Shown in pieces: positions 43,985 to 63,778 of a stretch of DNA of 64,000 bases. The stretch comes from Candidatus Levyibacteriota bacterium. Its GTDB lineage: Bacteria; Patescibacteriota; Microgenomatia; Levybacterales; UBA12049. Location of the stretch: positions 5,589 through 69,588 of the forward strand of contig JBBSGK010000002.1 in NCBI GenBank assembly GCA_038254115.1. Reading direction: 5' to 3'. Position numbers and translations under genes: made by a program. Each line of letters starts with the position of its first letter. The first letter of the stretch is position 1. The notes below the pieces were generated by a model, which saw nothing but the letters and a program-made list of their open reading frames with translations, had not been told where the DNA came from and searched no databases.

Positions 43985-44798
43985 ATTTTTTATTTTTTCC
44001 CAGGAATAATAAATAGATAACCCCTATATATCCCGCCATTATAGAAAGTCTGGCCAAACTAAATTCAGAATCTATTCCTGTAAAGCTACGTACTGCGTGA
44101 CCAATCAGGCTACGCTCGTCAGGCATAAATCTCATTTGAAATGAAACAATGTCAGACAAGCGAAAATTAAATTGATGAGCGAGCAGCTCTGTTGTTCCCA
44201 CCTGGACCATTGATGCCCCAAGCAGCATAATCATATATTCCGTAATGCGGAACACTTTCTGTATGGGAAATTTGGTGTATGTAAAAAATGCCGCTATCCC
44301 AACAAGCGATGCTGATCCAAGTCCAATAAAAAGCCCCATCATATTCTGAAAGAAAACAGCAAAGAGCGAAGTGCTCGCTGTGAATAGAGCAATTTCAAAT
44401 CCTTCTCTTATTACTAATAATATAATAGTTGCAAACAATGTAAAATCAAAAGCTCTGTTCTCCAATTTTGTTTTAGCTGTTTTAATTATAGCTTTTTTAT
44501 TCTCACTTATCCGCCTGTGAAGGGAAAAAATAACATAAGCTATGAAGAATCCGGAAAACAGCATAAGATAGTTTCCCAATAATTCTGCCCGCTTTTCAGT
44601 TAGTATAACTCGGGCCGCGTCCCCAAAGGTGTAAGTTGCAGTTGACAAAATAACAGAAATTAAAATTCCCAGTGCTGCAGCAATCCCTATCTCTGTTTCT
44701 TTTTTCAAACGAAGCTTTCGTGATACTCCCAGAAAAACACCTATGATTAGGAATATTTCCAAAAACTCTCTGAATGCAATTATCGCTATACTGAACAT
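43974..44798 (-). CDS. FTR1/EfeU-family putative iron permease, first gene after the leu attenuator
   Basis: Two RExxE motifs in hydrophobic spans ([13 protein letters not shown] and [13 protein letters not shown]). Seven predicted TMS. I prefer the ATG at 44798 (MFSIAII...) over the TTG at 44855, which lies in the terminator U-tract. Confidence 0.5.
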
Positions 44799-44853
44799 AA
44801 TTTTAATTATACACCCGCCGTTGTTTTCTTTTCGTCTAACATCCTGAACCCAC

Positions 44854-44877
44854 AAAAAAAACCCCGCTGAGCGGGGG
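44854..44877 (-). terminator. Intrinsic terminator of the leu attenuator (CCCCGC-UCA-GCGGGG + U8 on minus strand)
   Basis: Plus strand reads aaaaaaaaccccgctgagcggggg. The reverse strand gives a GC hairpin followed by eight U. Confidence 0.75.
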
Positions 44878-44910
44878 TGTATTTGTTACTAACCAAACAA
44901 ATCTCCCCGC

Positions 44911-44955
44911 CTAAACGGTAAGAAGTGTAAGGTTAAGAAGTTGTCTTTTATTCAT
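44911..44955 (-). CDS. leuL: Leu-rich leader peptide MNKRQLLNLTLLTV (leu operon attenuator)
   Basis: 14 codons, 5 Leu. The stop is immediately followed by GCGGGGAG, which can pair with the 5' arm of the terminator (antiterminator). TTGACG-N17-TATTAT promoter at 44965-44993 (minus). Confidence 0.6.
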   Translation of the reverse strand: MNKRQLLNLTLLTV

Positions 44956-45057
44956 GTTGATTTGATAATATCAGAAGAATCACAATCCGTCAATAGTTTT
45001 GTTACGCCTGATCCTGTTTGAGATATTGACTGGAAAGTATAGCGAGGTGGTATACTA

Positions 45058-46051: not shown

Positions 46052-46972
46052 TTAAATCTTCGTTGTCCAGGCTTTGTAATCTTTATCTTTCCCACGAACA
46101 ATACTGAAGAACTTTTCCTGAAGTTTTTTGGTGACAGATCCTATACCGGCTTTTCCAATTTGTCTATTATCTATTTTTGCAACCCACGCAACTTGACAAC
46201 CAGTTCCTGAAAGAAAAACTTCATCCGAAACATACAATTCGCTTCGTTCAATAGAACGCTCAATTGTATCAATGCCCATGTCTTTTGCAATTTGAATAAC
46301 AGACCTCCTCGTAATTCCCTCAAGGGCTCCTTCAGAAAGACCGGGTGTGATAAGTTTTCCGTCGCGGACGATAAATAGATTTTCTGCAGATCCTTCAGAT
46401 ACATGCCCTGAACTATTTAGTAAAATCGCTTCATCAAATCCACCATCAGTTGCTTCCTTTCTTGCGAGGGCTGAATTTACATATCCTCCTGAAAGCTTTG
46501 CACGGGTAGGAATTGCATTATCGCTGATTCTTTGCCAGGTCGAGACAATCATGGATAAGCCTTTATCAACCGGCATATATTCCTCAAGCGGAATCATGTA
46601 GAGAGCAAAATCAAGTTTTATATTTGCAAAATTAGGACCAAGCTCGGTATTACCGACATATGCAAACGGGCGAAGGTAAATATTTGTTTTAGGCTCATTC
46701 TTTGCAATAAGATCAAGTGTAATTTTTTTTAACTCCTCGTGCGAATAGGGAAGCGGACATCCTACAATTCTACCCGAAGACAAAAATCTCTTGTAATGAT
46801 CATCGATTCTAAAAAGAGAAACAAATCCTTCTTCTTTATTGTAGTAACCCCTGATGCCACCAAAAAAAGCTGTGCCGTACTGCAGAGCATTGGTCATAAT
46901 AGAGACCTTTGCATCCTCAATCTTTACGATTTCTCCTTGAAAAAATGCGTATGGAAATGCTTGAGTTTTCAT
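46052..46972 (-). CDS. ilvE: Branched-chain amino acid aminotransferase (fold type IV PLP)
   Basis: MKTQAFPYAFFQGEIVKIEDAKVSIMTNALQYGTAFFGGIRGY... Conserved E..GSAENLF and LSGTGCQV(T)...V motifs. Confidence 0.85.
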   Translation of the reverse strand: MKTQAFPYAFFQGEIVKIEDAKVSIMTNALQYGTAFFGGIRGYYNKEEGFVSLFRIDDHYKRFLSSGRIVGCPLPYSHEELKKITLDLIAKNEPKTNIYLRPFAYVGNTELGPNFANIKLDFALYMIPLEEYMPVDKGLSMIVSTWQRISDNAIPTRAKLSGGYVNSALARKEATDGGFDEAILLNSSGHVSEGSAENLFIVRDGKLITPGLSEGALEGITRRSVIQIAKDMGIDTIERSIERSELYVSDEVFLSGTGCQVAWVAKIDNRQIGKAGIGSVTKKLQEKFFSIVRGKDKDYKAWTTKI

Positions 46973-50380: not shown

Positions 50381-50656
50381 TTAAATTCTACCAACCGGCT
50401 CTTTGTTTTCGCCTTCAAAAGCATCAATTATCTCAATAATTTTATTTAGCTGCTTGATAGTTTTTTGTGTGGTCTTCTTATCTTGATTAACAACTATTTT
50501 AAATTTAGAAATTCCATGGGTCTTAGTCTCTGAGACATCTAGACTTTCAATGTTTACTTTTCTCCGCAAAAAAAGATCAGAAATGCGGTAAAGCACTCCG
50601 GGTTTGTTTTCAGCAAAAATAGTTATAATACTGTTTTTAGGATCCATATTATTCAA
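50381..50656 (-). CDS. ilvN: Acetolactate synthase small (regulatory, ACT-domain) subunit
   Basis: ACT fold IITIFAENKPGVLYRISDLFLRRKVNIESLDVSETKTHGISKFKIV. Directly downstream of ilvB with an overlap. Confidence 0.8.
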   Translation of the reverse strand: MNNMDPKNSIITIFAENKPGVLYRISDLFLRRKVNIESLDVSETKTHGISKFKIVVNQDKKTTQKTIKQLNKIIEIIDAFEGENKEPVGRI

Positions 50657-52337
50657 GCCTTACATCTGAAACGGACATTCCCGACGGAACCATCGGAAAT
50701 ACATTTTCTTCTTTCCGGACTGTCACCTCCAAAAGCATGGGTTTTTTTGATGCCAATAGCTTCTCAAGTCCGCTTCCAAGCTCCTCTCTTTTATCGACAC
50801 GTACTGCATCAATAAAAAATCCCTTGGCAACCGCAACAAAATCCGGATTTACCAGATCAACAAAAGAATATCGCTTGCCATGAAATAATTGCTGCCATTG
50901 CCTTACCATTCCAAGGAAGTTATTGTTAAGAACAATAATTTTGACGGGGATTTGCTCCTGAAACAGTGTTGCCAGTTCCTGGATATTCATTTGAAAACTC
51001 CCATCCCCTATAATCGCAACAACTTGCCTGTTGGGTGCAGCAACTTTAGCGCCAAGTGCTGCGGGCAAGGCAAATCCCATTGTTCCCAACCCTCCTGATG
51101 TTATAAAACTATCCGGCTTTGCCAACTTGGAATATCTAGCAGCAACCATCTGATGTTGTCCAACATCTGCAACGATAACTGCGTCACCTTTTGTCTTTTC
51201 AGAAAGCATATTTATGGTTTCGGCCATTGTAATCATTCCGGTTGTGGGGTGCATTTCTGCATCTTTGACTATTTTTTGCTCTTTTACATCACACTTCTTG
51301 AATTCTTCAATCCATGAAGAGTGCTTGGATTTTTTCACATGGACTGTAAGAGCGGCAAGCGCCTCTTTTGCATCTGCAATAATCGGAACAGCAACTTCAA
51401 CGTTTTTATTCAATTCTGCAGGGTCAATATCAATATGAATTATTTTAGCCTGCTTGGCATAATTGTCCAGATTGCCCGTAACACGGTCGTCAAACCGCAT
51501 GCCAACTGCAAGTATGACATCCGCTTGGTTGGTTAGGAGATTTGTTCCGTAATTTCCATGCATGCCAAGCATACCAACATATTGCGGATGGTTTGAAGGA
51601 AGCGCTGACAGCCCGTGAAGAGTTGATGCTGCCGGAATATCTGTTTTCTCCAGAAACTTTTTAAGTACCTCTTCAGCCTTTGCAATAAGCACTCCATGAC
51701 CAACTAGCATAAACGGACGCTTTGCTGAGTTAAGAAGTTCTGCTGCTTGTATAATCTGCTTTTCATCGGGTATTATTTGTGGCTTGTAACCCAAAATAGT
51801 AGGAGATTTTTGATAAGTGAAATCCAGTAACTCATTTTGAGCGTTTTTTGTGATTTCAATCATTACCGGTCCCGGCCTTCCGGTTCTGCTTATGTGAAAT
51901 GCTTTTGCAAAGACTTCAGGAATCTCAGAGGCAGTGGTAATCTGATAATTCCATTTTGTAATAGGGGTTGTAACTCCGATGATGTCTGCTTCCTGAAACG
52001 CATCAGTCCCCAGAAGTTTGGCGGGAACCTGTCCGCAAATGCAAACAATAGGCACCGAATCAAGCATTGCGTCAGTTATAGCTGTGATCAGATTGGTCGC
52101 GCCCGGACCCGATGTAACGAGCGCAACCCCGGGCTTACCGGTAATACGCGCATAACCCTCAGCAGCATGTCCTGCGCCTTGTTCATGACGCACAAGGATG
52201 TGACGGATTTTTTCTTTGTAATCATACAAAGCGTCATAAACAGGCATGATTGCCCCTCCGGGGTAACCGAATATTACATCTACTCCTTCTTTCAAAAGAG
52301 ATTCCATTACTGCTTGTGATCCAGTTATTTGTTTCAT
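50649..52337 (-). CDS. ilvB: Acetolactate synthase large subunit (ThDP-dependent)
   Basis: GYPGGAIMPVYDAL..., ThDP motif GDGSFQMNIQELATL...NNNFLGMVRQWQ. I prefer the ATG at 52337 (MKQITGSQ...). The ORF-track GTG at 52349 would sit directly against the attenuator U-tract. Confidence 0.9.
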   Translation of the reverse strand: MKQITGSQAVMESLLKEGVDVIFGYPGGAIMPVYDALYDYKEKIRHILVRHEQGAGHAAEGYARITGKPGVALVTSGPGATNLITAITDAMLDSVPIVCICGQVPAKLLGTDAFQEADIIGVTTPITKWNYQITTASEIPEVFAKAFHISRTGRPGPVMIEITKNAQNELLDFTYQKSPTILGYKPQIIPDEKQIIQAAELLNSAKRPFMLVGHGVLIAKAEEVLKKFLEKTDIPAASTLHGLSALPSNHPQYVGMLGMHGNYGTNLLTNQADVILAVGMRFDDRVTGNLDNYAKQAKIIHIDIDPAELNKNVEVAVPIIADAKEALAALTVHVKKSKHSSWIEEFKKCDVKEQKIVKDAEMHPTTGMITMAETINMLSEKTKGDAVIVADVGQHQMVAARYSKLAKPDSFITSGGLGTMGFALPAALGAKVAAPNRQVVAIIGDGSFQMNIQELATLFQEQIPVKIIVLNNNFLGMVRQWQQLFHGKRYSFVDLVNPDFVAVAKGFFIDAVRVDKREELGSGLEKLLASKKPMLLEVTVRKEENVFPMVPSGMSVSDVRLE

Positions 52338-52349
52338 AAATTTAATCAC

Positions 52350-52372
52350 AAAAAAACCGCCTATTTGGCGGG
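52350..52372 (-). terminator. Intrinsic terminator of the ilvB attenuator (CCCGCC-AAAUA-GGCGG + U7 on minus strand)
   Basis: Plus strand reads aaaaaaaccgcctatttggcggg. On the reverse strand the hairpin is followed by seven U, 12 nt before the ilvB ATG. Confidence 0.75.
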
Positions 52373-52401
52373 ATTTTTATTACTTCGTTCTCCTCCCGCC
52401 A

Positions 52402-52446
52402 TTAGTGGGCCACGAGAAGGACGACTGTAATTAATATTTTTTTCAT
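52402..52446 (-). CDS. ilvL: Ile/Leu/Val-rich leader peptide MKKILITVVLLVAH (ilvBNC attenuator)
   Basis: 14 codons, 8 branched-chain residues. The stop is followed at once by GGCGGGA, complementary to UCCCGCC of the terminator 5' arm. TTGACT-N17-TACAAT promoter at 52459-52487 (minus). Confidence 0.65.
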   Translation of the reverse strand: MKKILITVVLLVAH

Positions 52447-52523
52447 ATACCAAAAGTGATTGTATCAGATGAAATTTATAGAGTCAAGAAGTACGGCAGT
52501 TGCAAAAAGATTTAGGAATTTAG

Positions 52524-54154: not shown

Positions 54155-54363
54155 GATTTGGCATTTGTCCTCTTGGTAATCTTATCAATTAGTAAAAGCA
54201 ATTTCTGCTAGAGTAGTTGGGGTTAATGTCGTACAAAACTTATTAGCACTTTGTCCTAATGGTTACAAAATGTTAGAATTTGTAGCGATGATAATCCTTA
54301 CTTATAAAAAGATTTAAATTTATGGACAAATAGCTAATTATATTGATTTAACAACCTAATTAG

Positions 54364-54446
54364 TGCGGACGAGAGGAGTTGAACCTCCACACCCTTTCGG
54401 GCACTACCACCTCAAGGTAGCGTGTATACCATTTCACCACGTCCGC
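54364..54446 (-). tRNA. tRNA-Leu (anticodon GAG), long variable arm
   Basis: Reverse complement GCGGACGTGGTGAAATGGTATACACGCTACCTTGAGGTGGTAGTGCCCGAAAGGGTGTGGAGGTTCAACTCCTCTCGTCCGCA. Anticodon loop TTGAGGT. Confidence 0.8.
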
Positions 54447-54686
54447 TTATTGAATTTCTGCAATTTCCTTAATTATTTCTCTTCCGTAACCCGACTTAAA
54501 AAATAATTCTAATTTCCTAGCATCACCTCTGGTTGAACAAATTTCTACGTGAATTAATTCCGCAGGTAACATATGTCTCGTTGCGCTCATTTTACCCGAA
54601 AAGTGTTCAATCAATCTTTTGTCTAATGTTACCAGTTTGTCCTTTATAAAATTTATTATTCTTAATGCTTTTGAGAATATAAACAT
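54447..54686 (-). CDS. Small GIY-YIG-superfamily nuclease (COG2827/UPF0213-like)
   Basis: 79 aa. LDKRLIEHFSGK...ARKLELFFKSGYGREIIKEI aligns with the conserved RRLxEHNSG...ARxxExFLKSGxGRxF core of the family. The N-terminal GIY-YIG strands are degenerate. Confidence 0.55.
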   Translation of the reverse strand: MFIFSKALRIINFIKDKLVTLDKRLIEHFSGKMSATRHMLPAELIHVEICSTRGDARKLELFFKSGYGREIIKEIAEIQ

Positions 54687-54715
54687 AAAACATGTATTCG
54701 GTTAGCTTGTATACC

Positions 54716-54735
54716 CCTGCCTGCCGGCAGGCAGG
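54716..54735. repeat. Perfect 20-bp palindrome CCTGCCTGCCGGCAGGCAGG (copy C), 30 bp upstream of the GIY-YIG gene
   Basis: Read directly. Identical to 27388-27407. Confidence 0.9.
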
Positions 54736-54751
54736 ATTTCACCACGTCCGC
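54736..54751. repeat. 16-bp direct repeat ATTTCACCACGTCCGC duplicating the 5' end of the tRNA-Leu(GAG) gene (54431-54446)
   Basis: Identical 16-mers at 54431-54446 and 54736-54751 bracket the GIY-YIG gene and the palindrome. Confidence 0.85.
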
Positions 54752-54769
54752 AGTCCTATTGTTTACTTG

Positions 54770-54852
54770 TGCCCAGGAGAGGAGTTGAACCTCCACGCCC
54801 TTGCGAGCACTGGCACCTGAAGCCAGCGTGTATACCATTTCACCACCTGGGC
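54770..54852 (-). tRNA. tRNA-Leu (anticodon CAG), long variable arm
   Basis: Reverse complement GCCCAGGTGGTGAAATGGTATACACGCTGGCTTCAGGTGCCAGTGCTCGCAAGGGCGTGGAGGTTCAACTCCTCTCCTGGGCA. Confidence 0.8.
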
Positions 54853-54943
54853 AAAGATTTCTTGACAAGCGCCAATCGTAATTTTATCAGATGAGGATGG
54901 ACTTGACAACGGAGCTAAATTTTGCAAATATAAGAAAGCCCAC

Positions 54944-55510
54944 ATGAGGAAATTACTGCTTACATCAACTCTCATTGTTTTCGCTCCTTTTGCATTTATT
55001 TTTGGCCTAATCATGATACTGGTGGTACATAGTCAGGGCTCCCACGCCTCCATTACGGGCCAAACAGTTGCGTACGCCGCTCTTCCAAGTACTCAAAATG
55101 TGCTTGCTGCGACCATTATGGAAAGCGATGGTGGAACTGCCGAGAAAATACGTCAATTTTTAGCTGCTTATAATTCGCCCCTTGAGCCATATGCTGTGGA
55201 CATTGTGAATGCTGCCGATGAATATGGGCTTGATCACAGACTAATAGTCGGAATTGCTATGCAGGAATCAACGCTATGTAAAAAAATCCCTGATAATTCA
55301 TTCAATTGCTGGGGTTTTGGAATATATACGGGACATGTAACACGCTTTGCTGACTATAAGGAAGGCATATATACAGTAAGTAAAGCCCTTGCAACAAGAT
55401 ACAAAACCCGGGGACTGGTAACTCCTGATCAAATAATGACTATGTATACTCCTAGCAGCAATGGCAGCTGGGCACGCGGGGTCAATAGCACCATGAATAG
55501 ACTTCAATAA
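54944..55510 (+). CDS. Membrane-anchored cell-wall glycoside hydrolase, lytic-transglycosylase/glucosaminidase-like
   Basis: N-terminal TM anchor, then LIVGIAMQESTLCKK (Glu-Ser catalytic dyad context)...NCWGFGIYTG...YTPSSNGSWA. Family assignment is approximate. Confidence 0.45.
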   Translation: MRKLLLTSTLIVFAPFAFIFGLIMILVVHSQGSHASITGQTVAYAALPSTQNVLAATIMESDGGTAEKIRQFLAAYNSPLEPYAVDIVNAADEYGLDHRLIVGIAMQESTLCKKIPDNSFNCWGFGIYTGHVTRFADYKEGIYTVSKALATRYKTRGLVTPDQIMTMYTPSSNGSWARGVNSTMNRLQ

Positions 55511-55711
55511 CCTCTTAATTTTTTCCTATATAAATGGGCTAATCTCCATTTGAGACTTATAGTTTGCTACTTGACAAACCTATAGTTATATGATATTATC
55601 CATCCTAGATCCTAAGGCATGTGCCCAAAACACATGCGTTAGGATTTTTTTTGAGATACATTGAGATACCTCTCTTCCCATTTCCCTATAAATAATTTAT
55701 AATATGAGCAT

Positions 55712-55794
55712 GCGGATGTGGTGAAATGGCAGACACGCAAGGTTTAGGACCTTGTGCCCGCAAGGGTGTGGAGGTTCGACTCCTCTCATCCGCA
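55712..55794 (+). tRNA. tRNA-Leu (anticodon TAG), long variable arm
   Basis: GCGGATGTGGTGAAATGGCAGACACGCAAGGTTTAGGACCTTGTGCCCGCAAGGGTGTGGAGGTTCGACTCCTCTCATCCGCA. Confidence 0.8.
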
Positions 55795-55810
55795 CTTAAA
55801 TAATTAAACT

Positions 55811-56656: not shown

Positions 56657-57322
56657 ATGGCAGGCAAAGTATCAAAAAAGGGTTTAATAAGAAATTCGCT
56701 TGAAGCAGTAACCAATATTGGCGATGCATCCGGCGTTGTGAGAGGTGCCGCGTCTTCCCTGGTAAATGACTTAGCGCTTGACGGCGGCAAAGACTTTTTA
56801 AGTTTTTTAGGAATGGATGTGGCATCAAAAGATAAGAAAGATTCTGATAAATCCTCACAGGAATCCCCCAACACTGAAACAGGCTCAATAGACATTGTCA
56901 ACTTCCAGGAAAAAGCCAAAAAAGTTGAGCAGCACGTTGAAGCAGCTATTGATTATCACCGCGATATCCTAAGATCTAGTGAGCGGATCTCCAAGCAGGA
57001 AATTCAATCCCTCAGCAATCAAGTAGAACAAATAAAAATGGAGATTCAGTCGCTTATTGCATCAACTAAAGAGATTCAAATGGAATTCTCCCAAGTAACT
57101 ATGGAACAACACGCTGAAAATGTGGGAACTTATCACACTAACTTCTTTGAGTGGATGATCATCATGATACGTGATGCCCGAAAAAAAGTTGAAGAATCAT
57201 CCAACTGGCTAAATGCGCAAAAAGGTAAAGGACAGAAAAAAGGTTATTGGGGAATGTTCAAGAAGCACGGTACCAGTTTTGCATTATCAAACGAACGTGG
57301 AGTTGCAACCCAAGTTGGATAA
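56657..57322 (+). CDS. Hypothetical coiled-coil protein
   Basis: 221 aa, central heptad region (ISKQEIQSLSNQVEQIKMEIQSLIASTKEIQMEF). No known family. Confidence 0.45.
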   Translation: MAGKVSKKGLIRNSLEAVTNIGDASGVVRGAASSLVNDLALDGGKDFLSFLGMDVASKDKKDSDKSSQESPNTETGSIDIVNFQEKAKKVEQHVEAAIDYHRDILRSSERISKQEIQSLSNQVEQIKMEIQSLIASTKEIQMEFSQVTMEQHAENVGTYHTNFFEWMIIMIRDARKKVEESSNWLNAQKGKGQKKGYWGMFKKHGTSFALSNERGVATQVG

Positions 57323-57330
57323 TTCTTCCG

Positions 57331-57457
57331 TTGACATACCTTAAGTGCATTGATATGATCTATTTAATGACTATAAAAAATATCAGTATTAAAATTATAA
57401 CTTCATAACGGAGAGGTCATTGCATAGCCTTTGAACCTCCCGGACGGGAGTTTTTTT
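57331..57457 (+). promoter_or_regulatory. ilvA control region: TTGACA-N17-TGATATGAT promoter, leaderless Ile-rich leader peptide MTIKNISIKIITS (57367-57408), CUCCC-GGAC-GGGAG hairpin + U7 whose 3' arm is the ilvA Shine-Dalgarno sequence
   Basis: Read directly. Leader has 5 Ile in 13 codons. The hairpin at 57437-57450 is followed by ttttttt and the ATG at 57458. Confidence 0.55.
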
Positions 57458-58705
57458 ATGGATAAAATCACAGTAAACACAATAGAGGAAGCTGCAAAAA
57501 CGCTTGACGGTGTTGTCAGCAATACGCCTCTGCAGTACAATCCTAGACTTTCAGCGGAGTTTAATTGCGATTTATACATCAAACGCGAAGATCTTCAAGA
57601 CGTACGGTCCTTTAAAATAAGAGGCGCATACAACAAGATTAATTCCCTAAAACAAACGGAGCGGAAACGGGGAATCGTAGCGGCCAGTACAGGCAATCAT
57701 GCGCAAGGCGTTGCTTACAGCTGCTTTCTTCTCAAAATAAAGGGAGTAATCTTCATGCCAACGGTAATATCCAATCAAAAAATTGATAAAGTAAAGCACT
57801 TCGGAGGTAAATATGTTGAGATCAAATTAATTGGCAAAACATTTGATGAGGCAGTGGACGCAGCGCGCAAATATTGTAAGGCTCACAATGCTGTTTTTAT
57901 TCACCCTTTTGATGATCCTTTGACAATATCCGGTCAAGGAACAGTGGGAAAAGAGATTTACGATAATTTGAAAGGTAAAGTTGATGTAGTAATCTCCCCG
58001 ATTGGCGGAGGAGGCCTTATCTCAGGTGTTGCCACTTATGTCAAAGGCAAGAAAAAAGAAGTAAAAGTTTTTGGAGTCGAGGCAAAGGGCGCTGCGAGCA
58101 TGGCAGAATCTTTAAAGCAGGACAAAATTGTTTCACTTGGAACATTTGATACTTTTGTCGATGGCGCTGCTGTCAATAAGGTGGGTCATTTGCCTTATCA
58201 AATTTGCTCTGAATTGGTGGAAAATGTACATATTGCCGAGGTTGGAAAAGTCTGCACTACAATGATTGACTTGTATCAAAATGAAGGGATAATCACGGAG
58301 CCGGCAGGCGCTTTGTCTCTGTCTGTTCTTGACGAACTAAGAGCCGAAATCAAAGGTAAAACGGTAGTATGCATACTTAGTGGCGGGAATAATGATATCT
58401 TGCGGTATCCTGAAATAATGGAAAAAAGTTTGGTGTACAAAGGGTTAAAGCACTATTTTCTGGTAGAATTCGCGCAGAAACCGGGACAATTGAAGCAATT
58501 TCTTAATAATGCGCTTGGGCCTCGGGATGACATCGTGCTTTTTGAATACATAAAAAGAAATTCACGGGAAAAAGGCCCCGCTCTAATTGGAGTAGAGCTA
58601 AGTAAAAAAGAAGATCTTGCCACACTTCTTGACAATATGGATAAATTGCAGATATTATATACAAAGATTACGAGCGATGACCCGCTATATGGTTTTATAT
58701 TATGA
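57458..58705 (+). CDS. ilvA: Threonine ammonia-lyase (biosynthetic threonine dehydratase) with C-terminal regulatory domain
   Basis: PLP-lysine motif SFKIRGAYNKI, GGGGLISG glycine loop, C-terminal ACT-like domain. Followed by ridA. Confidence 0.85.
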   Translation: MDKITVNTIEEAAKTLDGVVSNTPLQYNPRLSAEFNCDLYIKREDLQDVRSFKIRGAYNKINSLKQTERKRGIVAASTGNHAQGVAYSCFLLKIKGVIFMPTVISNQKIDKVKHFGGKYVEIKLIGKTFDEAVDAARKYCKAHNAVFIHPFDDPLTISGQGTVGKEIYDNLKGKVDVVISPIGGGGLISGVATYVKGKKKEVKVFGVEAKGAASMAESLKQDKIVSLGTFDTFVDGAAVNKVGHLPYQICSELVENVHIAEVGKVCTTMIDLYQNEGIITEPAGALSLSVLDELRAEIKGKTVVCILSGGNNDILRYPEIMEKSLVYKGLKHYFLVEFAQKPGQLKQFLNNALGPRDDIVLFEYIKRNSREKGPALIGVELSKKEDLATLLDNMDKLQILYTKITSDDPLYGFIL

Positions 58706-59079
58706 AAGATGTATTTACAAATGCTGCTCCCGCTTCGGTAGGCCCATATGCACAAGCTATTATAAGTAATGGCCTAGTCTTCTGCTCCGGTCAAATTGGC
58801 CTTGACCCAAAATCAGGTGAATTAAAAGGCGCAGACATAATCTCTCAAACATCCCAGGCAATCTTTAATCTAAAAGCTGTTATTGAAGCAGGAGGAAGCA
58901 ATCTTCAATACGTAGTCAAAACAACCTGCTATCTAACCGATTTGGCAGACTATCAAAAATTTAATGAGATTTATAACAAATATTTTGTTGAGCAGCCCGC
59001 CCGTGCAACTGTACAGGTCGCTAAGCTCCCCAAAGACGCGCTTGTTGAGATAGAAGCCATTGCTGAAGTCATTGTATGA
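58702..59079 (+). CDS. ridA: RidA/YjgF-family reactive enamine/imine deaminase
   Basis: 125 aa. APASVGPYAQAI...VFCSGQIGLDP...ARATVQVAKLP...VEIEAIA. ATGA overlap with ilvA. Confidence 0.8.
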   Translation: MKDVFTNAAPASVGPYAQAIISNGLVFCSGQIGLDPKSGELKGADIISQTSQAIFNLKAVIEAGGSNLQYVVKTTCYLTDLADYQKFNEIYNKYFVEQPARATVQVAKLPKDALVEIEAIAEVIV

Positions 59080-60158
59080 TACAGAAGAATAGGCTGGTTG
59101 AAACTTTCCTCGAACTTGTACAAATTGATAGCCCCTCAGGAGAAGAAAAAGAAATTTCAAAACTGATCGCGGCAAAACTTAATAAGCTGGGTGGAGCTAC
59201 GGAATTTGATAGTTATGGCAATATAATTGCCAGATTCGATGGAGTAGGTATTCCATGTATGCTCAACGCTCATTTGGACACAGTAGATCCGGGGCGGGGG
59301 ATCAAACCACACGTAACCGGGGAGAAAATTACCTCAGATGGAACAACAATTTTAGGCGCAGACGATAAAGCGGGACTTGCAATAATTATTGAAACATTAG
59401 CCTCACTAGTTGAAGAAAATAAGTCTCACGTTCCCCTTGAAATCGTACTGACACTTGGTGAAGAGGTGGGACTATTGGGAGCTGTAAATTTGGATTATTC
59501 CAAAGTAAAAGCAAAAATAGGCGTCACTTTTGATATGGCCGGAGGTGTGGAAAATATTACAACAGCTGCGCCGGGATATGCAAGAGTTGATGTGACTGTC
59601 ACCGGGCGCTCGGCCCACGCAGGCTTTGAACCCGAAAAAGGAATATCCGCCATAAAGATCATTTCAGAAATCATATCACAGCTTGAAGTTGGGAGGATTG
59701 ATGATGAAACAACAGCCAATGTGGGACTTATTGAAGGCGGGTCAGCAAGAAATGCAGTACCTGAAACTGCGCATTTTAAAGCAGAAATCAGAAGCCGCAA
59801 TCTAAAAAAACTGGAAGGACATAAGTTACATTTCGAAAAAGTTTTAAAAGATGTTCTCCTAAAGCATCCAGATGCAAAAATTGACTTGAATTCTCATACC
59901 GAATTTGACCCATATTTATTTAAAGAATCATACCATGTCATACAACGCGTTGTTAAAACACTTAAAAAAATGGGGCTGGAACCACATCTCGTGCCCTCAG
60001 GAGGAGGCGCGGACGTAAATATTTTTCATAAACATGGAATTGAGACATTATGCATTGGCGCCGGCTTTTACAATCCACATACAACACGTGAATATGTGCT
60101 TATCCATGAACTAGTAAATGGAGCAAAATTTTGCGAAAAATTTGTTCTAACTGATTAA
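59076..60158 (+). CDS. M20-family metallopeptidase, peptidase T (PepT)-like
   Basis: HLDTVDPG, GADDKAGLA and GEEVGLLGA metal-ligand motifs. About 360 aa. Confidence 0.65.
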   Translation: MIQKNRLVETFLELVQIDSPSGEEKEISKLIAAKLNKLGGATEFDSYGNIIARFDGVGIPCMLNAHLDTVDPGRGIKPHVTGEKITSDGTTILGADDKAGLAIIIETLASLVEENKSHVPLEIVLTLGEEVGLLGAVNLDYSKVKAKIGVTFDMAGGVENITTAAPGYARVDVTVTGRSAHAGFEPEKGISAIKIISEIISQLEVGRIDDETTANVGLIEGGSARNAVPETAHFKAEIRSRNLKKLEGHKLHFEKVLKDVLLKHPDAKIDLNSHTEFDPYLFKESYHVIQRVVKTLKKMGLEPHLVPSGGGADVNIFHKHGIETLCIGAGFYNPHTTREYVLIHELVNGAKFCEKFVLTD

Positions 60159-60202: not shown

Positions 60203-60276
60203 GGGCTCATAGCTCAGTTGGTTAGAGCGTTACATTGACATTGTAAAGGTCAGAGGTTCGACTCCTCTTGGGCCCA
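60203..60276 (+). tRNA. tRNA-Val (anticodon GAC)
   Basis: GGGCTCATAGCTCAGTTGGTTAGAGCGTTACATTGACATTGTAAAGGTCAGAGGTTCGACTCCTCTTGGGCCCA. Extended -10 TGCTATAAT upstream. Confidence 0.8.
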
Positions 60277-63195: not shown

Positions 63196-63546
63196 ATGGC
63201 AAGAATTAAAAGAGGAACTGTATCAAAAAGAAGACACAACAAATTGTTGGATCTGACAAAGGGCTTCAGGGGAACAAAAAGTACCCTTGTGAGAGAAGCA
63301 AAAGCAGCCAGTCTTCATGCCGGCCAATACGCGTACAACGGCCGGAAAGAGCGGAAAAGTGATTTCCGGTCTCTCTGGATCATCCGGATTGGAGAAGCTG
63401 CCAAACAACAGGGCATATCATACAGCGTTTTTATTAACAAACTTAAAAAAGCCAATATCGAGCTTGACCGGAAAATCCTAAGCAGCTTAGTTGCGGAAGA
63501 TCCCGCAGCTTTTAAGCAAGTTGTTGACTTAGCCAAAAAAGTGTAG
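63196..63546 (+). CDS. rplT: Ribosomal protein L20
   Basis: MARIKRGTVSKRRHNKLLDLTKGFRG... matches the canonical L20 N-terminus. Confidence 0.9.
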   Translation: MARIKRGTVSKRRHNKLLDLTKGFRGTKSTLVREAKAASLHAGQYAYNGRKERKSDFRSLWIIRIGEAAKQQGISYSVFINKLKKANIELDRKILSSLVAEDPAAFKQVVDLAKKV

Positions 63547-63559
63547 TATAAATAAGCCT

Positions 63560-63637
63560 ATGAGCTCGTCAGAACAGAAAAATTGGTTTTACTTTTACTT
63601 TACTTCCCAATCCGGGAGGTTGAGTCGCGGTTTATAA
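63560..63637 (+). CDS. Aromatic-rich leader peptide MSSSEQKNWFYFYFTSQSGRLSRGL (aroB attenuator)
   Basis: 25 codons with six consecutive aromatic residues (WFYFYF). A TTGACT-N17-TATAAA promoter (63524-63552) ends 7 nt before the ATG. Codons 19-21 (GGGAGGTT) are complementary to ACCUCCC of the downstream terminator. Confidence 0.6.
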   Translation: MSSSEQKNWFYFYFTSQSGRLSRGL

Positions 63638-63664
63638 CTAAAAGTAAATAAACCAAAACACAAC

Positions 63665-63688
63665 ACCTCCCACAAGGGAGGTTTTTTT
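63665..63688 (+). terminator. Intrinsic terminator ACCUCCC-ACAA-GGGAGGU + U7 (aroB attenuator; also terminates rplT)
   Basis: Read directly: acacctcccacaagggaggttttttt. Confidence 0.75.
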
Positions 63689-63778
63689 ATGCAAAAATCA
63701 TTAACACAGGAAGAATTTGATATACTGATGAAAGAAACGAAGTTGATTTCCAAAGATCCTGCATATATACAAATATGA
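63689..63778 (+). CDS. 29-codon upstream ORF (MQKSLTQEEFDILMKETKLISKDPAYIQI) translationally coupled to aroB by an ATGA overlap
   Basis: Starts directly after the terminator U-tract. Its TGA stop overlaps the aroB ATG. No SD precedes aroB. Confidence 0.4.
   Translation: MQKSLTQEEFDILMKETKLISKDPAYIQI

What the first reader, a model, noticed from the sequence alone, without database searches (positions are those of the whole stretch)
57331..57460. Ile-rich leaderless leader peptide upstream of ilvA, with hairpin sequestering the ilvA ribosome-binding site
Seen: a TTGACA-N17-TGATATGAT promoter ends 7 nt before the ATG (57367) of MTIKNISIKIITS (5 Ile plus 2 Thr in 13 codons). Threonine dehydratase is the first Ile-specific enzyme. 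Downstream, CUCCC-GGAC-GGGAG (57437-57450) is followed by UUUUUUU and then the ilvA ATG. The 3' arm GGGAG is the only Shine-Dalgarno-like sequence for ilvA.

The hairpin could therefore act as a terminator, as a translational occluder, or as both. AGAGGU at 57412-57417 can pair with ACCUC of the hairpin 5' arm as a weak antiterminator/anti-sequester.
Basis: partly seen in the sequence, partly recalled or inferred. Interest (0 to 1): 0.65.

Follow-up and report, generated by a model that had tools for sequence, protein, structure and literature searches.

The report
Isoleucine-sensing leader-peptide attenuator of ilvA
A 13-codon, isoleucine-rich mini-gene followed by a switchable terminator hairpin sits in front of the threonine dehydratase gene of a candidate-phyla-radiation bacterium. 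It is a classic amino-acid-sensing attenuator, ordinary in kind but not, as far as I could find, described in this group of bacteria.

Summary
A strong promoter (TTGACA-17-TGaTATGAT) ends 7 nt before the ATG of MTIKNISIKIITS (57367-57408). A CTCCC/GGGAG hairpin plus U7 (57437-57457) abuts the ilvA ATG (57458).

It is a ribosome-mediated transcription attenuator. Segment 2 (57409-57419, directly after the leader stop) pairs with the terminator 5' arm. This antiterminator (-12.7 kcal/mol) is more stable than the terminator (-8.0).

An Ile-rich mini-ORF plus hairpin plus T-run precedes ilvA, ridA-ilvA or a longer ilvA-containing operon in 25 of about 150 related loci (27 curated family members), mostly Patescibacteria. 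In a 1.5 Mb scan, every hit lay upstream of ilvA on its strand.

The same window holds three sister attenuators with matching codons:
- Leu before the leu operon
- Ile/Leu/Val before ilvB
- Trp/Phe/Tyr before a probable aroB

Leaderless initiation is inferred. The -10 box ends 6-7 nt before the start codon in 12 of 15 orthologues (13 on inspection), and 40% of the window's genes show the same arrangement.

Shine-Dalgarno occlusion is unproven. SD-like motifs are not enriched in this genome and the spacing is not conserved.

It is a new member of a known kind, of moderate interest.

The parts
57331..57336 (+). -35 hexamer TTGACA
   Evidence: A TTGAC-type hexamer sits at the same relative position in most orthologous leaders.
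57351..57359 (+). Extended -10, TG-a-TATGAT, 17-nt spacer
   Evidence: In 12 of 15 orthologues the best-scoring -10 ends 6-7 nt before the leader start codon; L038 also has TGgTAGTAT 7 nt upstream on inspection.
57367..57408 (+). Leader ORF MTIKNISIKIITS*. No Shine-Dalgarno sequence upstream. The predicted transcription start is at or next to the A of the ATG (leaderless). Ile codons lie at 57373-75, 57382-84, 57388-90, 57394-96 and 57397-99.
   Evidence: It is the only small ORF of 729 with this Ile fraction. Ile-rich ORFs occupy the same position in 26 related loci.
57400..57404 (+). Segment 1 (ACUUC, the last two sense codons). It pairs weakly with GAGGU 57413-57417.
   Evidence: -3.5 kcal/mol. 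The equivalent 1:2 hairpins in relatives are stronger, up to -15.5 kcal/mol.
57409..57419 (+). Segment 2 (CGGAGAGGUCA), the 5' arm of the antiterminator. It starts 1 nt after the leader stop codon.
   Evidence: In the 12 short-type leaders segment 2 starts -2 to +5 nt from the end of the stop codon.
57432..57442 (+). Segment 3 (UGAACCUCCCG). It pairs either with segment 2 (antiterminator) or, through CUCCC 57437-57441, with segment 4 (terminator).
   Evidence: The two helices share 57437-57441 and are mutually exclusive.
57446..57450 (+). Segment 4 (GGGAG), the 3' arm of the terminator. It is also the only SD-like sequence, 7 nt before the ilvA AUG.
   Evidence: Segment 4 is of the GGGAG(G) type in about 18 of 27 family members.
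57451..57457 (+). U7 tract of the intrinsic terminator, directly abutting the ilvA start codon
   Evidence: A T-run of 5-9 is present in all 27 family members.
57458..58705 (+). ilvA (threonine ammonia-lyase with one C-terminal regulatory domain), the first regulated gene
58702..59079 (+). ridA-type gene (Ribonuc_L-PSP). It overlaps the ilvA stop by 4 nt and belongs to the same operon.
   Evidence: In 10 or more relatives ridA lies between the Ile leader and ilvA.
59076..60158 (+). PepT-like M20 peptidase gene. It overlaps the ridA stop and is the last gene of the operon, ahead of tRNA-Val at 60203.

Best explanation
The element is a ribosome-mediated (leader-peptide) transcription attenuator that sets expression of the ilvA-ridA-pepT-like operon according to charged tRNA-Ile.

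Proposed sequence of events:
1. Transcription starts at or next to the A of the leader AUG (57367). A 70S ribosome loads on the 5'-terminal AUG without a Shine-Dalgarno sequence.
2. With ample Ile, the ribosome runs to the UAA (57406-57408). There it covers segment 2 (57409-57419), which begins 1 nt after the stop codon.
3. Segment 3 is then free to pair with segment 4. The CUCCC/GGGAG hairpin plus U7 terminates transcription just before the ilvA AUG.
4. With scarce Ile, the ribosome stalls on one of the five Ile codons (57373-57399). It covers segment 1 but leaves segment 2 free.
5. Segment 2 pairs with segment 3, and this helix is stronger than the terminator. No terminator forms and RNA polymerase reads into ilvA. 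Segment 4 (GGGAG) and the U-rich stretch before the AUG are left single-stranded.

What is shown: the sequence elements, the mutually exclusive helices and their energies, the geometry, and the conservation of the design.

What is inferred: the transcription start, ribosome stalling, termination efficiency and the in vivo response to Ile.
For: Structure:
- The antiterminator (2:3) is -12.7 kcal/mol, against -8.0 for the terminator (3:4). The antiterminator is the MFE fold of the leader.
- All 12 short-type leaders analysed can form the 1:2, 2:3 and 3:4 hairpins, and 2:3 is at least about as stable as 3:4.
- Complementarity between the segment-2 zone and segment 3 exceeds dinucleotide shuffles (Fisher-combined p = 1.3e-6 over 14 leaders).
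- Cognate pairs are more stable than non-cognate pairs (-12.4 vs -10.3 kcal/mol, permutation p = 0.0025).
- The arms differ between members while staying complementary. Examples are GGAGAGG/CCUCCC/GGGAG, GGGGUUGU/ACAACCCC/GCGGGG and GGGAGGAGUGUC/GACUCCCUA/UAGGGAG.

Geometry:
- Segment 2 starts -2 to +5 nt from the stop codon in the 12 short-type leaders. It lies inside the ORF in the long type.

Conservation and specificity:
- I scanned 1.54 Mb (about 150 ilvA loci, both strands) for an Ile-rich ORF of 10-25 codons plus hairpin plus T-run. All 25 hits lay on the ilvA strand and upstream of ilvA, ridA-ilvA or an ilvB-like-ilvA operon. None lay elsewhere.
- Ile is 31% of leader codons against 8.3% in the window's genes. 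All three Ile codons are used, so the codon class is what is conserved, not the RNA sequence.

Paralogous support in the same window. Each has the same stop / segment 2 / segment 3 / segment 4 / U-tract layout.
- MNKRQLLNLTLLTV before the leu operon.
- MKKILITVVLLVAH before ilvB-ilvN-ilvC-ilvD-ilvE.
- ..KNWFYFYFTS.. before a probable aroB. This one gives a sub-threshold Rfam Phe_leader match of 37.8 bits, E = 5e-5.

Leaderless start:
- The best-scoring -10 ends 6-7 nt before the start codon in 12 of 15 orthologues; L038 adds a 13th on inspection (TGgTAGTAT 7 nt upstream).
- 26 of 65 window genes have a -10-like hexamer ending 5-9 nt before their start, against 3.5% of control ATGs (p = 3e-21).
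Against: - There is no experimental evidence of any kind: no mapped transcription start, no termination assay and no Ile response.
- The terminator stem has only 5 bp (-8.0 kcal/mol, z = -1.5).
- The 1:2 hairpin is very weak here (-3.5 kcal/mol). Without translation this leader would probably default to read-through, unlike E. coli trp. No obvious pause hairpin synchronises ribosome and polymerase.
- MAFFT with RNAalifold gave no consensus structure because the leaders do not align in register. Structural support is therefore energy-based and not a column-wise covariation count.
- The cognate versus non-cognate test is only moderately significant, because most members share GGAGG/CCUCC-type arms.
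- Thr codons (2 here, up to 4 in L034 and L054) are unexplained. Thr is IlvA's substrate.
Confidence: 0.9

Rival explanations
1. Translational control is the main or an additional mechanism. The hairpin hides GGGAG, the Shine-Dalgarno sequence of ilvA. Antiterminator formation exposes it, so Ile starvation raises ilvA translation whether or not termination changes.
For: - GGGAG lies 7 nt before the ilvA AUG, and the whole 3' arm is in the hairpin.
- Across the family, segment 4 is of the GGGAG(G)/AGGAGG type in about 18 of 27 members.
- A start codon abuts the T-run in 8-9 of 27 members, giving an ideal spacing of 7-9 nt.
- The aro attenuator in the window has the same GGGAGG-U7-AUG fusion.
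- A gene placed behind a leader cannot use the leaderless initiation that is normal in this genome. It may therefore be one of the few genes that needs an SD.
Against: - SD-like 4-mers precede 4 of 65 genes, no more than at control ATGs.
- The spacing from hairpin to start is 4-20 nt in most relatives. L052 has its own AAGGAG after the terminator. L032, L034, L026 and the window's ilvB and leu attenuators have non-SD arms such as GCGGGG or GGCGG.
- The U-tract, which occlusion alone would not require, is present in 27 of 27 members.
- No 16S rRNA gene lies in the window, so the organism's anti-SD sequence is unknown.
Confidence: 0.3
2. The hairpin plus U7 is only the terminator or insulator of the upstream DUF5660 gene, and the Ile-rich ORF is a chance feature of AT-rich intergenic DNA.
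For: - The hairpin lies 115 nt after the DUF5660 stop (57322).
- The hairpin alone is not statistically remarkable.
- AT-rich sequence favours ATH codons.
Against: - A near-consensus promoter lies between the upstream gene and the hairpin.
- The ORF plus hairpin travels with ilvA or ridA-ilvA whatever the upstream gene is.
- All 25 scan hits are upstream of ilvA on its strand.
- It is the only Ile-rich small ORF of 729 in the window.
Confidence: 0.02
3. The leader is a ligand- or tRNA-binding riboswitch (T-box-like or a new Ile riboswitch), and the ORF is not translated.
For: - Alternative terminator and antiterminator helices are also the expression platform of riboswitches.
- T-boxes control ilv genes in Firmicutes (general knowledge).
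Against: - The leader is only about 90 nt with no conserved aptamer-like core.
- No Rfam family reaches threshold, and the sub-threshold hits are unrelated families.
- What is conserved is the codon class (Ile, with ATT, ATC and ATA all used), the reading frame and the position of the stop codon relative to segment 2, not the primary sequence.
- Sister leaders in the window switch to Leu, Ile/Leu/Val or Trp/Phe/Tyr codons to match their operons.
Confidence: 0.02

Closest known systems
Corynebacterium glutamicum ilvBNC attenuator with leader peptide IlvL
   Same: - A leader-peptide transcription attenuator of a branched-chain amino-acid operon.
- A three-hairpin model (anti-antiterminator, antiterminator, terminator).
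- The leader peptide is translated from a leaderless mRNA (PMC11857589).
- Leader peptides before trpE, leuA, ilvB and aroF in one genome (PMC3890552) mirror the set of four in this window.
   Different: - It comes from a different phylum (Actinobacteria).
- It controls ilvBNC, not ilvA.
- No sequence or Rfam-level similarity was found.
Escherichia coli ilvGMEDA (ilvL) and thr (thrL) leader-peptide attenuators (textbook knowledge)
   Same: - Ribosome stalling at regulatory codons selects the antiterminator over the terminator.
- ilvA is among the genes controlled by ilvL.
- thrL mixes Thr and Ile codons, as several of the leaders found here do.
   Different: - The E. coli leaders are Shine-Dalgarno-led, longer (ilvL is 32 aa) and multivalent (Ile, Leu and Val).
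- They have a strong 1:2 pause hairpin.
- The structural gene has its own separate RBS.
- Here the leader is 13 codons, Ile-only and leaderless, and the terminator U-tract abuts the start codon.
Rfam Phe_leader (RF01859) and the other Rfam amino-acid leader families
   Same: Same functional class. The window's aromatic leader (63570-63690) aligns over the full model at 37.8 bits.
   Different: The ilvA leader gives no meaningful Rfam match. The aro hit is below the gathering score of 55. None of the window's four leaders belongs to a curated family.
Mycobacterial leaderless Cys-rich upstream ORFs (from memory, not checked here)
   Same: Short leaderless ORFs enriched in one amino acid that tune the downstream biosynthetic genes.
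   Different: As I recall, they act without a canonical intrinsic terminator. Here a hairpin plus U-tract is conserved.

Membership tests
Ribosome-mediated (leader-peptide) transcription attenuator | A short ORF enriched in codons for the amino acid made by the downstream pathway | tested here: met
   - 5 Ile in 13 codons before ilvA, the only such ORF among 729.
- 31% Ile across 27 family leaders, against 8.3% in the window's genes.
Ribosome-mediated (leader-peptide) transcription attenuator | An intrinsic terminator (GC-rich hairpin plus U-tract) between the leader ORF and the structural gene | tested here: met
   - CUCCC-GGAC-GGGAG plus U7, -8.0 kcal/mol.
- Hairpin plus T5-9 in all 27 family members.
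- Termination itself was not assayed.
Ribosome-mediated (leader-peptide) transcription attenuator | An alternative antiterminator helix that shares bases with the terminator 5' arm | tested here: met
   - 57409-57419 pairs with 57432-57442 at -12.7 kcal/mol. This is the MFE fold.
- Present in all 12 leaders analysed.
- Exceeds shuffles (p = 1.3e-6) and non-cognate pairings (p = 0.0025).
Ribosome-mediated (leader-peptide) transcription attenuator | Geometry: a ribosome at the stop codon masks the antiterminator 5' arm, while one stalled at the regulatory codons leaves it free | tested here: met
   - Segment 2 begins 1 nt after the UAA here, and -2 to +5 nt in the 12 short-type leaders.
- The last Ile codon ends 9 nt before segment 2.
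- The ribosome footprint size is taken from general knowledge.
Ribosome-mediated (leader-peptide) transcription attenuator | Read-through responds to charging of the cognate tRNA in vivo | not testable with these tools
   Needs reporter or transcript assays under Ile limitation.
Leaderless mRNA | The transcription start coincides with the start codon, and there is no 5' UTR or Shine-Dalgarno sequence | tested here: inconclusive
   - The -10 ends 7 nt before the ATG here, and 6-7 nt in 12 of 15 orthologues by best score, 13 with L038 on inspection.
- There is no SD upstream.
- 40% of window genes have the same arrangement.
- The start site itself is not mapped.
Any curated Rfam leader family (Leu, Thr, His, Trp or Phe leaders and others) | A match to the covariance model at the gathering score | tested here: not met
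   No hit at the gathering threshold in the window apart from tRNAs. The best E-value hits on 57300-57500 are unrelated families far below threshold.
T-box riboswitch | Stem I, specifier loop and T-box sequence in a leader of about 200-300 nt, with a match to RF00230 | tested here: not met
   The leader is about 90 nt, and no T-box hit appears even at E <= 10.

The most novel reading that the evidence does not exclude
Patescibacteria (Levybacteria and relatives) run their branched-chain and aromatic amino-acid biosynthesis on a coherent set of leaderless leader-peptide attenuators. In a subset of these, the terminator 3' arm (GGGAGG), its U-tract and the structural gene's start codon are fused into one SD-spacer-AUG unit. 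A single RNA switch would then set both transcription read-through and translation initiation. This would be the first regulatory RNA mechanism, and the first indirect evidence for transcription-translation coupling, documented in this uncultivated radiation.
Probability: 0.3. Interest if true: 0.55.

Novelty: new member of a known kind. Interest (0 to 1): 0.4.

Why it matters
Mechanistically this is textbook attenuation, so it does not change how the mechanism is understood. Its value is contextual.

- Some candidate-phyla-radiation bacteria are usually described as biosynthetically minimal. This one carries a complete, finely regulated branched-chain amino-acid pathway, with end-product-specific sensors: Ile for ilvA, Leu for leu, Ile/Leu/Val for ilvB and aromatic residues for aro.
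- These sensors rely on leaderless translation and close ribosome-polymerase coupling in these organisms.
- It gives annotators a simple, highly specific signature for ilvA regulation in Patescibacteria. All 25 scan hits were upstream of ilvA operons.
- It offers a compact natural Ile sensor of about 125 nt, promoter included.

Tried and rejected
- Rfam at gathering and at permissive thresholds gave nothing for the ilvA leader. Only a sub-threshold Phe_leader hit appeared for the aro leader, and nothing useful for the ilvB and leu leaders.
- MAFFT alignment of 12 leaders and RNAalifold on the antiterminator segments failed. The sequences are not in register and no consensus pairs were predicted. 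I therefore used per-sequence folding, shuffles and cognate versus non-cognate duplex energies in place of column-wise covariation. I did not build a covariance model, because the seed alignment was unreliable.
- My first automatic terminator caller picked the antiterminator in many sequences. I redid this step.
- The upstream in-frame ATG at 57355 (MIYLMTIK...) was rejected as the start. It lies inside the -10 box and has no counterpart in the orthologues.
- The TTG at 57431 was rejected as the ilvA start. Homologues align from the ATG at 57458.
- The reading that the hairpin is the terminator of the upstream gene, and the riboswitch or T-box reading, were both rejected (see rivals).
- Literature searches for attenuators or leader peptides in Patescibacteria or the candidate phyla radiation found nothing relevant.
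Full report
**1. Observation**

Reading 56800-57800 confirms every coordinate in the finding.
- TTGACA lies at 57331-57336. A 17-nt spacer carries TG at 57351-57352, and TATGAT lies at 57354-57359.
- Seven nucleotides follow, then ATG at 57367.
- The ORF reads MTIKNISIKIITS with its stop at 57406-57408.
- CTCCC-GGAC-GGGAG lies at 57437-57450, T7 at 57451-57457 and the ilvA ATG at 57458.

The consensus scan rates the promoter 11/12 with an extended -10 and lists the hairpin as terminator-like. The downstream protein is threonine ammonia-lyase IlvA, by an NCBIfam equivalog at 595 bits and by Pfam PALP plus one regulatory domain. It is followed by an overlapping RidA-type gene and a PepT-like M20 peptidase gene.

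**2. Is it more than chance?**

- Of 729 ATG-started ORFs of 8-25 codons on both strands of the window, this is the only one with an Ile fraction of at least 5/13.
- Ile makes up 8.3% of codons in the window's genes.
- The hairpin by itself is unremarkable (z = -1.5).

The case therefore rests on the combination of elements and on comparison with related sequences.

**3. Organism and context**

DUF5660 and DUF5665 proteins flank the locus. The closest IlvA loci come from MAGs labelled Levybacteria/Levyibacteriota, Roizmanbacteria, Saccharibacteria and "Patescibacteria group". The window is therefore from a candidate-phyla-radiation genome, probably Levybacteria.

It nevertheless carries the whole branched-chain pathway on the minus strand:
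- ilvB (50649-52349), an ACT small subunit (50381-50656), ilvC, a glyoxalase-fold ORF, ilvD and ilvE (46052-46972)
- leuA, leuC, leuD and leuB (43984 down to 39420)

**4. Structure of the leader**

RNAfold of 57367-57470 does not give the terminator as its minimum-energy fold. It gives an antiterminator in which CGG-A-GAGGUCA (57409-57419) pairs with UG-A-ACCUCCCG (57432-57442).

| Helix | Segments | Energy |
|---|---|---|
| Antiterminator | 2:3 | -12.7 kcal/mol (z = -2.3) |
| Terminator | 3:4 | -8.0 kcal/mol |
| Anti-antiterminator | 1:2 (ACUUC 57400-57404 with GAGGU 57413-57417) | -3.5 kcal/mol |

The antiterminator and terminator share 57437-57441 and are mutually exclusive. Segment 2 starts one nucleotide after the leader stop codon, so a terminating ribosome would mask it. 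The last Ile codon ends 9 nt upstream of segment 2, so a ribosome stalled on an Ile codon would leave it free. That is the logic of classical attenuation.

**5. Orthologues**

Scans of genome and metagenome collections with IlvA gave 152 loci. The upstream regions show the same element in L001, L002, L003, L005, L010, L018, L028, L032, L034, L036, L038, L052, L054 and L084. Examples of the peptides:
- MKRQGSIISIIINS
- MTRQIIIIGIIIAP
- MLIKKAQIIINIITP
- MNKNQIITITTIPS
- MRENIDSISIIIIP

I then ran an unbiased scan of all loci, both strands (1.54 Mb), for an ORF of 10-25 codons with at least 4 Ile in 7 codons, followed by a hairpin and a T-run. It gave 25 hits.
- Twelve lie directly before ilvA.
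- Thirteen lie further upstream on the same strand. These sit in front of ridA-ilvA (ridA confirmed by Pfam in L030, L035, L042 and L097) or, in L026, an ilvB-like-ilvA operon.
- No hit lies on the other strand or downstream of ilvA.

Two subtypes exist. The short type has 13-15 codons, with segment 2 right after the stop codon. The long type has 17-25 codons of the pattern ...IIITS..GG.., with the 1:2 hairpin inside the ORF.

All 12 short-type leaders analysed can form the 1:2, 2:3 and 3:4 hairpins.
- Complementarity between the segment-2 zone and segment 3 exceeds dinucleotide shuffles (combined p = 1.3e-6 over 14 leaders).
- It also exceeds non-cognate pairings (p = 0.0025).
- The arms differ between members while remaining complementary.

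MAFFT with RNAalifold could not align the leaders in register. No column-wise covariation statistic is therefore offered.

**6. Paralogues in the window**

Three further leaders have the same layout, and their regulatory codons match their operons.
- **leu operon, minus strand, 44955 to 44849.** The peptide is MNKRQLLNLTLLTV. GCGGGGAG follows the stop codon, then the terminator CCCCCGC/GCGGGG plus U8. It lies ahead of an FTR1-like gene and leuACDB.
- **ilvB operon, minus strand, 52446 to 52350.** The peptide is MKKILITVVLLVAH. GGCGGGAGG follows the stop codon, then UCCCGCC/GGCGG plus U7. It lies ahead of ilvB.
- **aro, plus strand, 63560 to 63688.** The peptide is MSSSEQKNWFYFYFTSQSGRLSRGL, with a full 1:2/2:3/3:4 set and ACCUCCC/GGGAGGU plus U7. 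A 29-codon ORF follows, and its stop overlaps the ATG of a gene whose 75-residue fragment best matches 3-dehydroquinate synthase. That match is weak (E = 0.007). This leader gives a sub-threshold Rfam Phe_leader hit of 37.8 bits.

The specificity pattern is Ile only for the Ile-specific enzyme, mixed Ile/Leu/Val for the shared enzymes, Leu for leu and aromatic residues for aro. This is what attenuation predicts and is hard to explain otherwise.

**7. Leaderless initiation**

No Shine-Dalgarno sequence precedes the leader ORF. The best-scoring -10 hexamer ends 6-7 nt before the start codon in 12 of 15 orthologous leaders. L038 adds a 13th on inspection, with TGgTAGTAT 7 nt before its ATG.

This is the normal arrangement in this genome.
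- 26 of 65 genes in the window have a -10-like hexamer ending 5-9 nt before the start codon, against 3.5% of control ATGs (p = 3e-21).
- SD-like 4-mers precede only 4 of 65 genes, no more than the controls.

The leaderless start is therefore well supported by inference but is not mapped. Leaderless leader peptides are already known, for example IlvL of C. glutamicum ilvBNC (PMC11857589).

**8. RBS sequestration**

GGGAG is indeed the only SD-like sequence and sits 7 nt before the ilvA AUG.

In favour of a real role:
- Segment 4 is of the GGGAG(G)/AGGAGG type in about 18 of 27 family members.
- A start codon abuts the T-run in 8-9 of 27 members.
- A gene placed behind a leader cannot be leaderless, so it may need an SD.

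Against:
- SD motifs are not enriched genome-wide.
- The spacing is 4-20 nt in most relatives, L052 has its own AAGGAG, and several members have non-SD arms.

The U-tract is universal. I conclude that termination is the conserved function. Translational occlusion is a plausible but unproven second layer here, with a probability of about 0.3.

**9. Comparison and novelty**

The element works like the E. coli ilvL and thrL and the C. glutamicum IlvL attenuators. It meets every sequence-level criterion of the class (see the membership table). It belongs to no curated Rfam family. Full-text searches found no report of attenuators or leader peptides in Patescibacteria.

It is a new member of a known kind. 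The mechanism is ordinary. The interest lies in the phylum, the complete four-member set in one 64-kb window and the compact leaderless design.

Noticed in passing
window 63534-63688 (+), continuing to 64000: An aromatic amino-acid attenuator. TTGACT-17-TATAAA ends 7 nt before the ATG at 63560 of MSSSEQKNWFYFYFTSQSGRLSRGL. It has a 1:2 hairpin (CUUCCC/GGGAGG), segment 3:4 ACCUCCC-ACAA-GGGAGGU (63665-63682) and a U7 tract. The ATG at 63689 opens a 29-codon ORF whose stop overlaps (ATGA) the ATG at 63775 of a gene whose fragment weakly resembles 3-dehydroquinate synthase. It gives a sub-threshold Rfam Phe_leader hit of 37.8 bits.
   Followed up: partly
window 52350-52490 (- strand): A branched-chain attenuator before ilvB. 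TTGACT-17-TACAAT is followed 12 nt later by an ATG (52446) encoding MKKILITVVLLVAH. GGCGGGAGG lies right after the stop codon, then UCCCGCC-AAAUA-GGCGG plus U7 (52371-52357), then the GTG or ATG of ilvB.
   Followed up: partly
window 44790-45000 (- strand): A leucine attenuator. TTGACG-17-TATTAT is followed 9 nt later by an ATG (44955) encoding MNKRQLLNLTLLTV. GCGGGGAG lies after the stop codon, then CCCCCGC-UCA-GCGGGG plus U8. Oddly, the first gene behind it is an FTR1-like iron permease (about 44798-43974). That gene has its own TATAAT 7 nt before its ATG and overlaps the start of leuA.
   Followed up: partly
whole window: The genome appears dominated by leaderless transcripts. 26 of 65 genes have a -10-like hexamer ending 5-9 nt before the start codon (controls 3.5%). 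Shine-Dalgarno-like 4-mers are not enriched upstream of genes (4 of 65).
   Followed up: yes
L010 2888-3000 and L073 about 40-320: Two relatives carry a conserved insert of about 110 nt between the Ile attenuator's terminator and ilvA. It includes a long-range stem, ATCCGCC...GGCGGAT. This may be a second structured RNA element.
   Followed up: no
L116 241-279 and L094 about 1400-1490: An Ile-rich mini-ORF (MQTIISPIISII in L116, MKIQTLLISIT in L094) lies between ilvC and ilvA. It is followed by a hairpin without a clear T-run. This may be an internal attenuator variant or a translational one.
   Followed up: no
L036 2948-3003, L003 695-784 and window 63689-63778: In several attenuators the T-run is followed at once by the start codon of a short bridging ORF. 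In L036 and in the window's aro locus its stop overlaps the ATG of the structural gene (ATGA), which suggests translational coupling after read-through; in L003 the bridging ORF ends a few nt before the ilvA ATG.
   Followed up: no
window 57370-57372 and 57400-57402; L034 and L054 leaders: Thr codons accompany the Ile codons (2 here, 4 in MNKKLIIAITTTLL and MNKNQIITITTIPS). Thr is the substrate of IlvA, so sensing Thr starvation would seem counterproductive. The codons may instead be constrained by segment 1 pairing.
   Followed up: no
window 54363-55795: Three tRNA-Leu genes (anticodons GAG, CAG and UAG) cluster just upstream of tig and the ilvA locus. tRNA-Val (GAC) follows the ilvA operon at 60203.
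   Followed up: no
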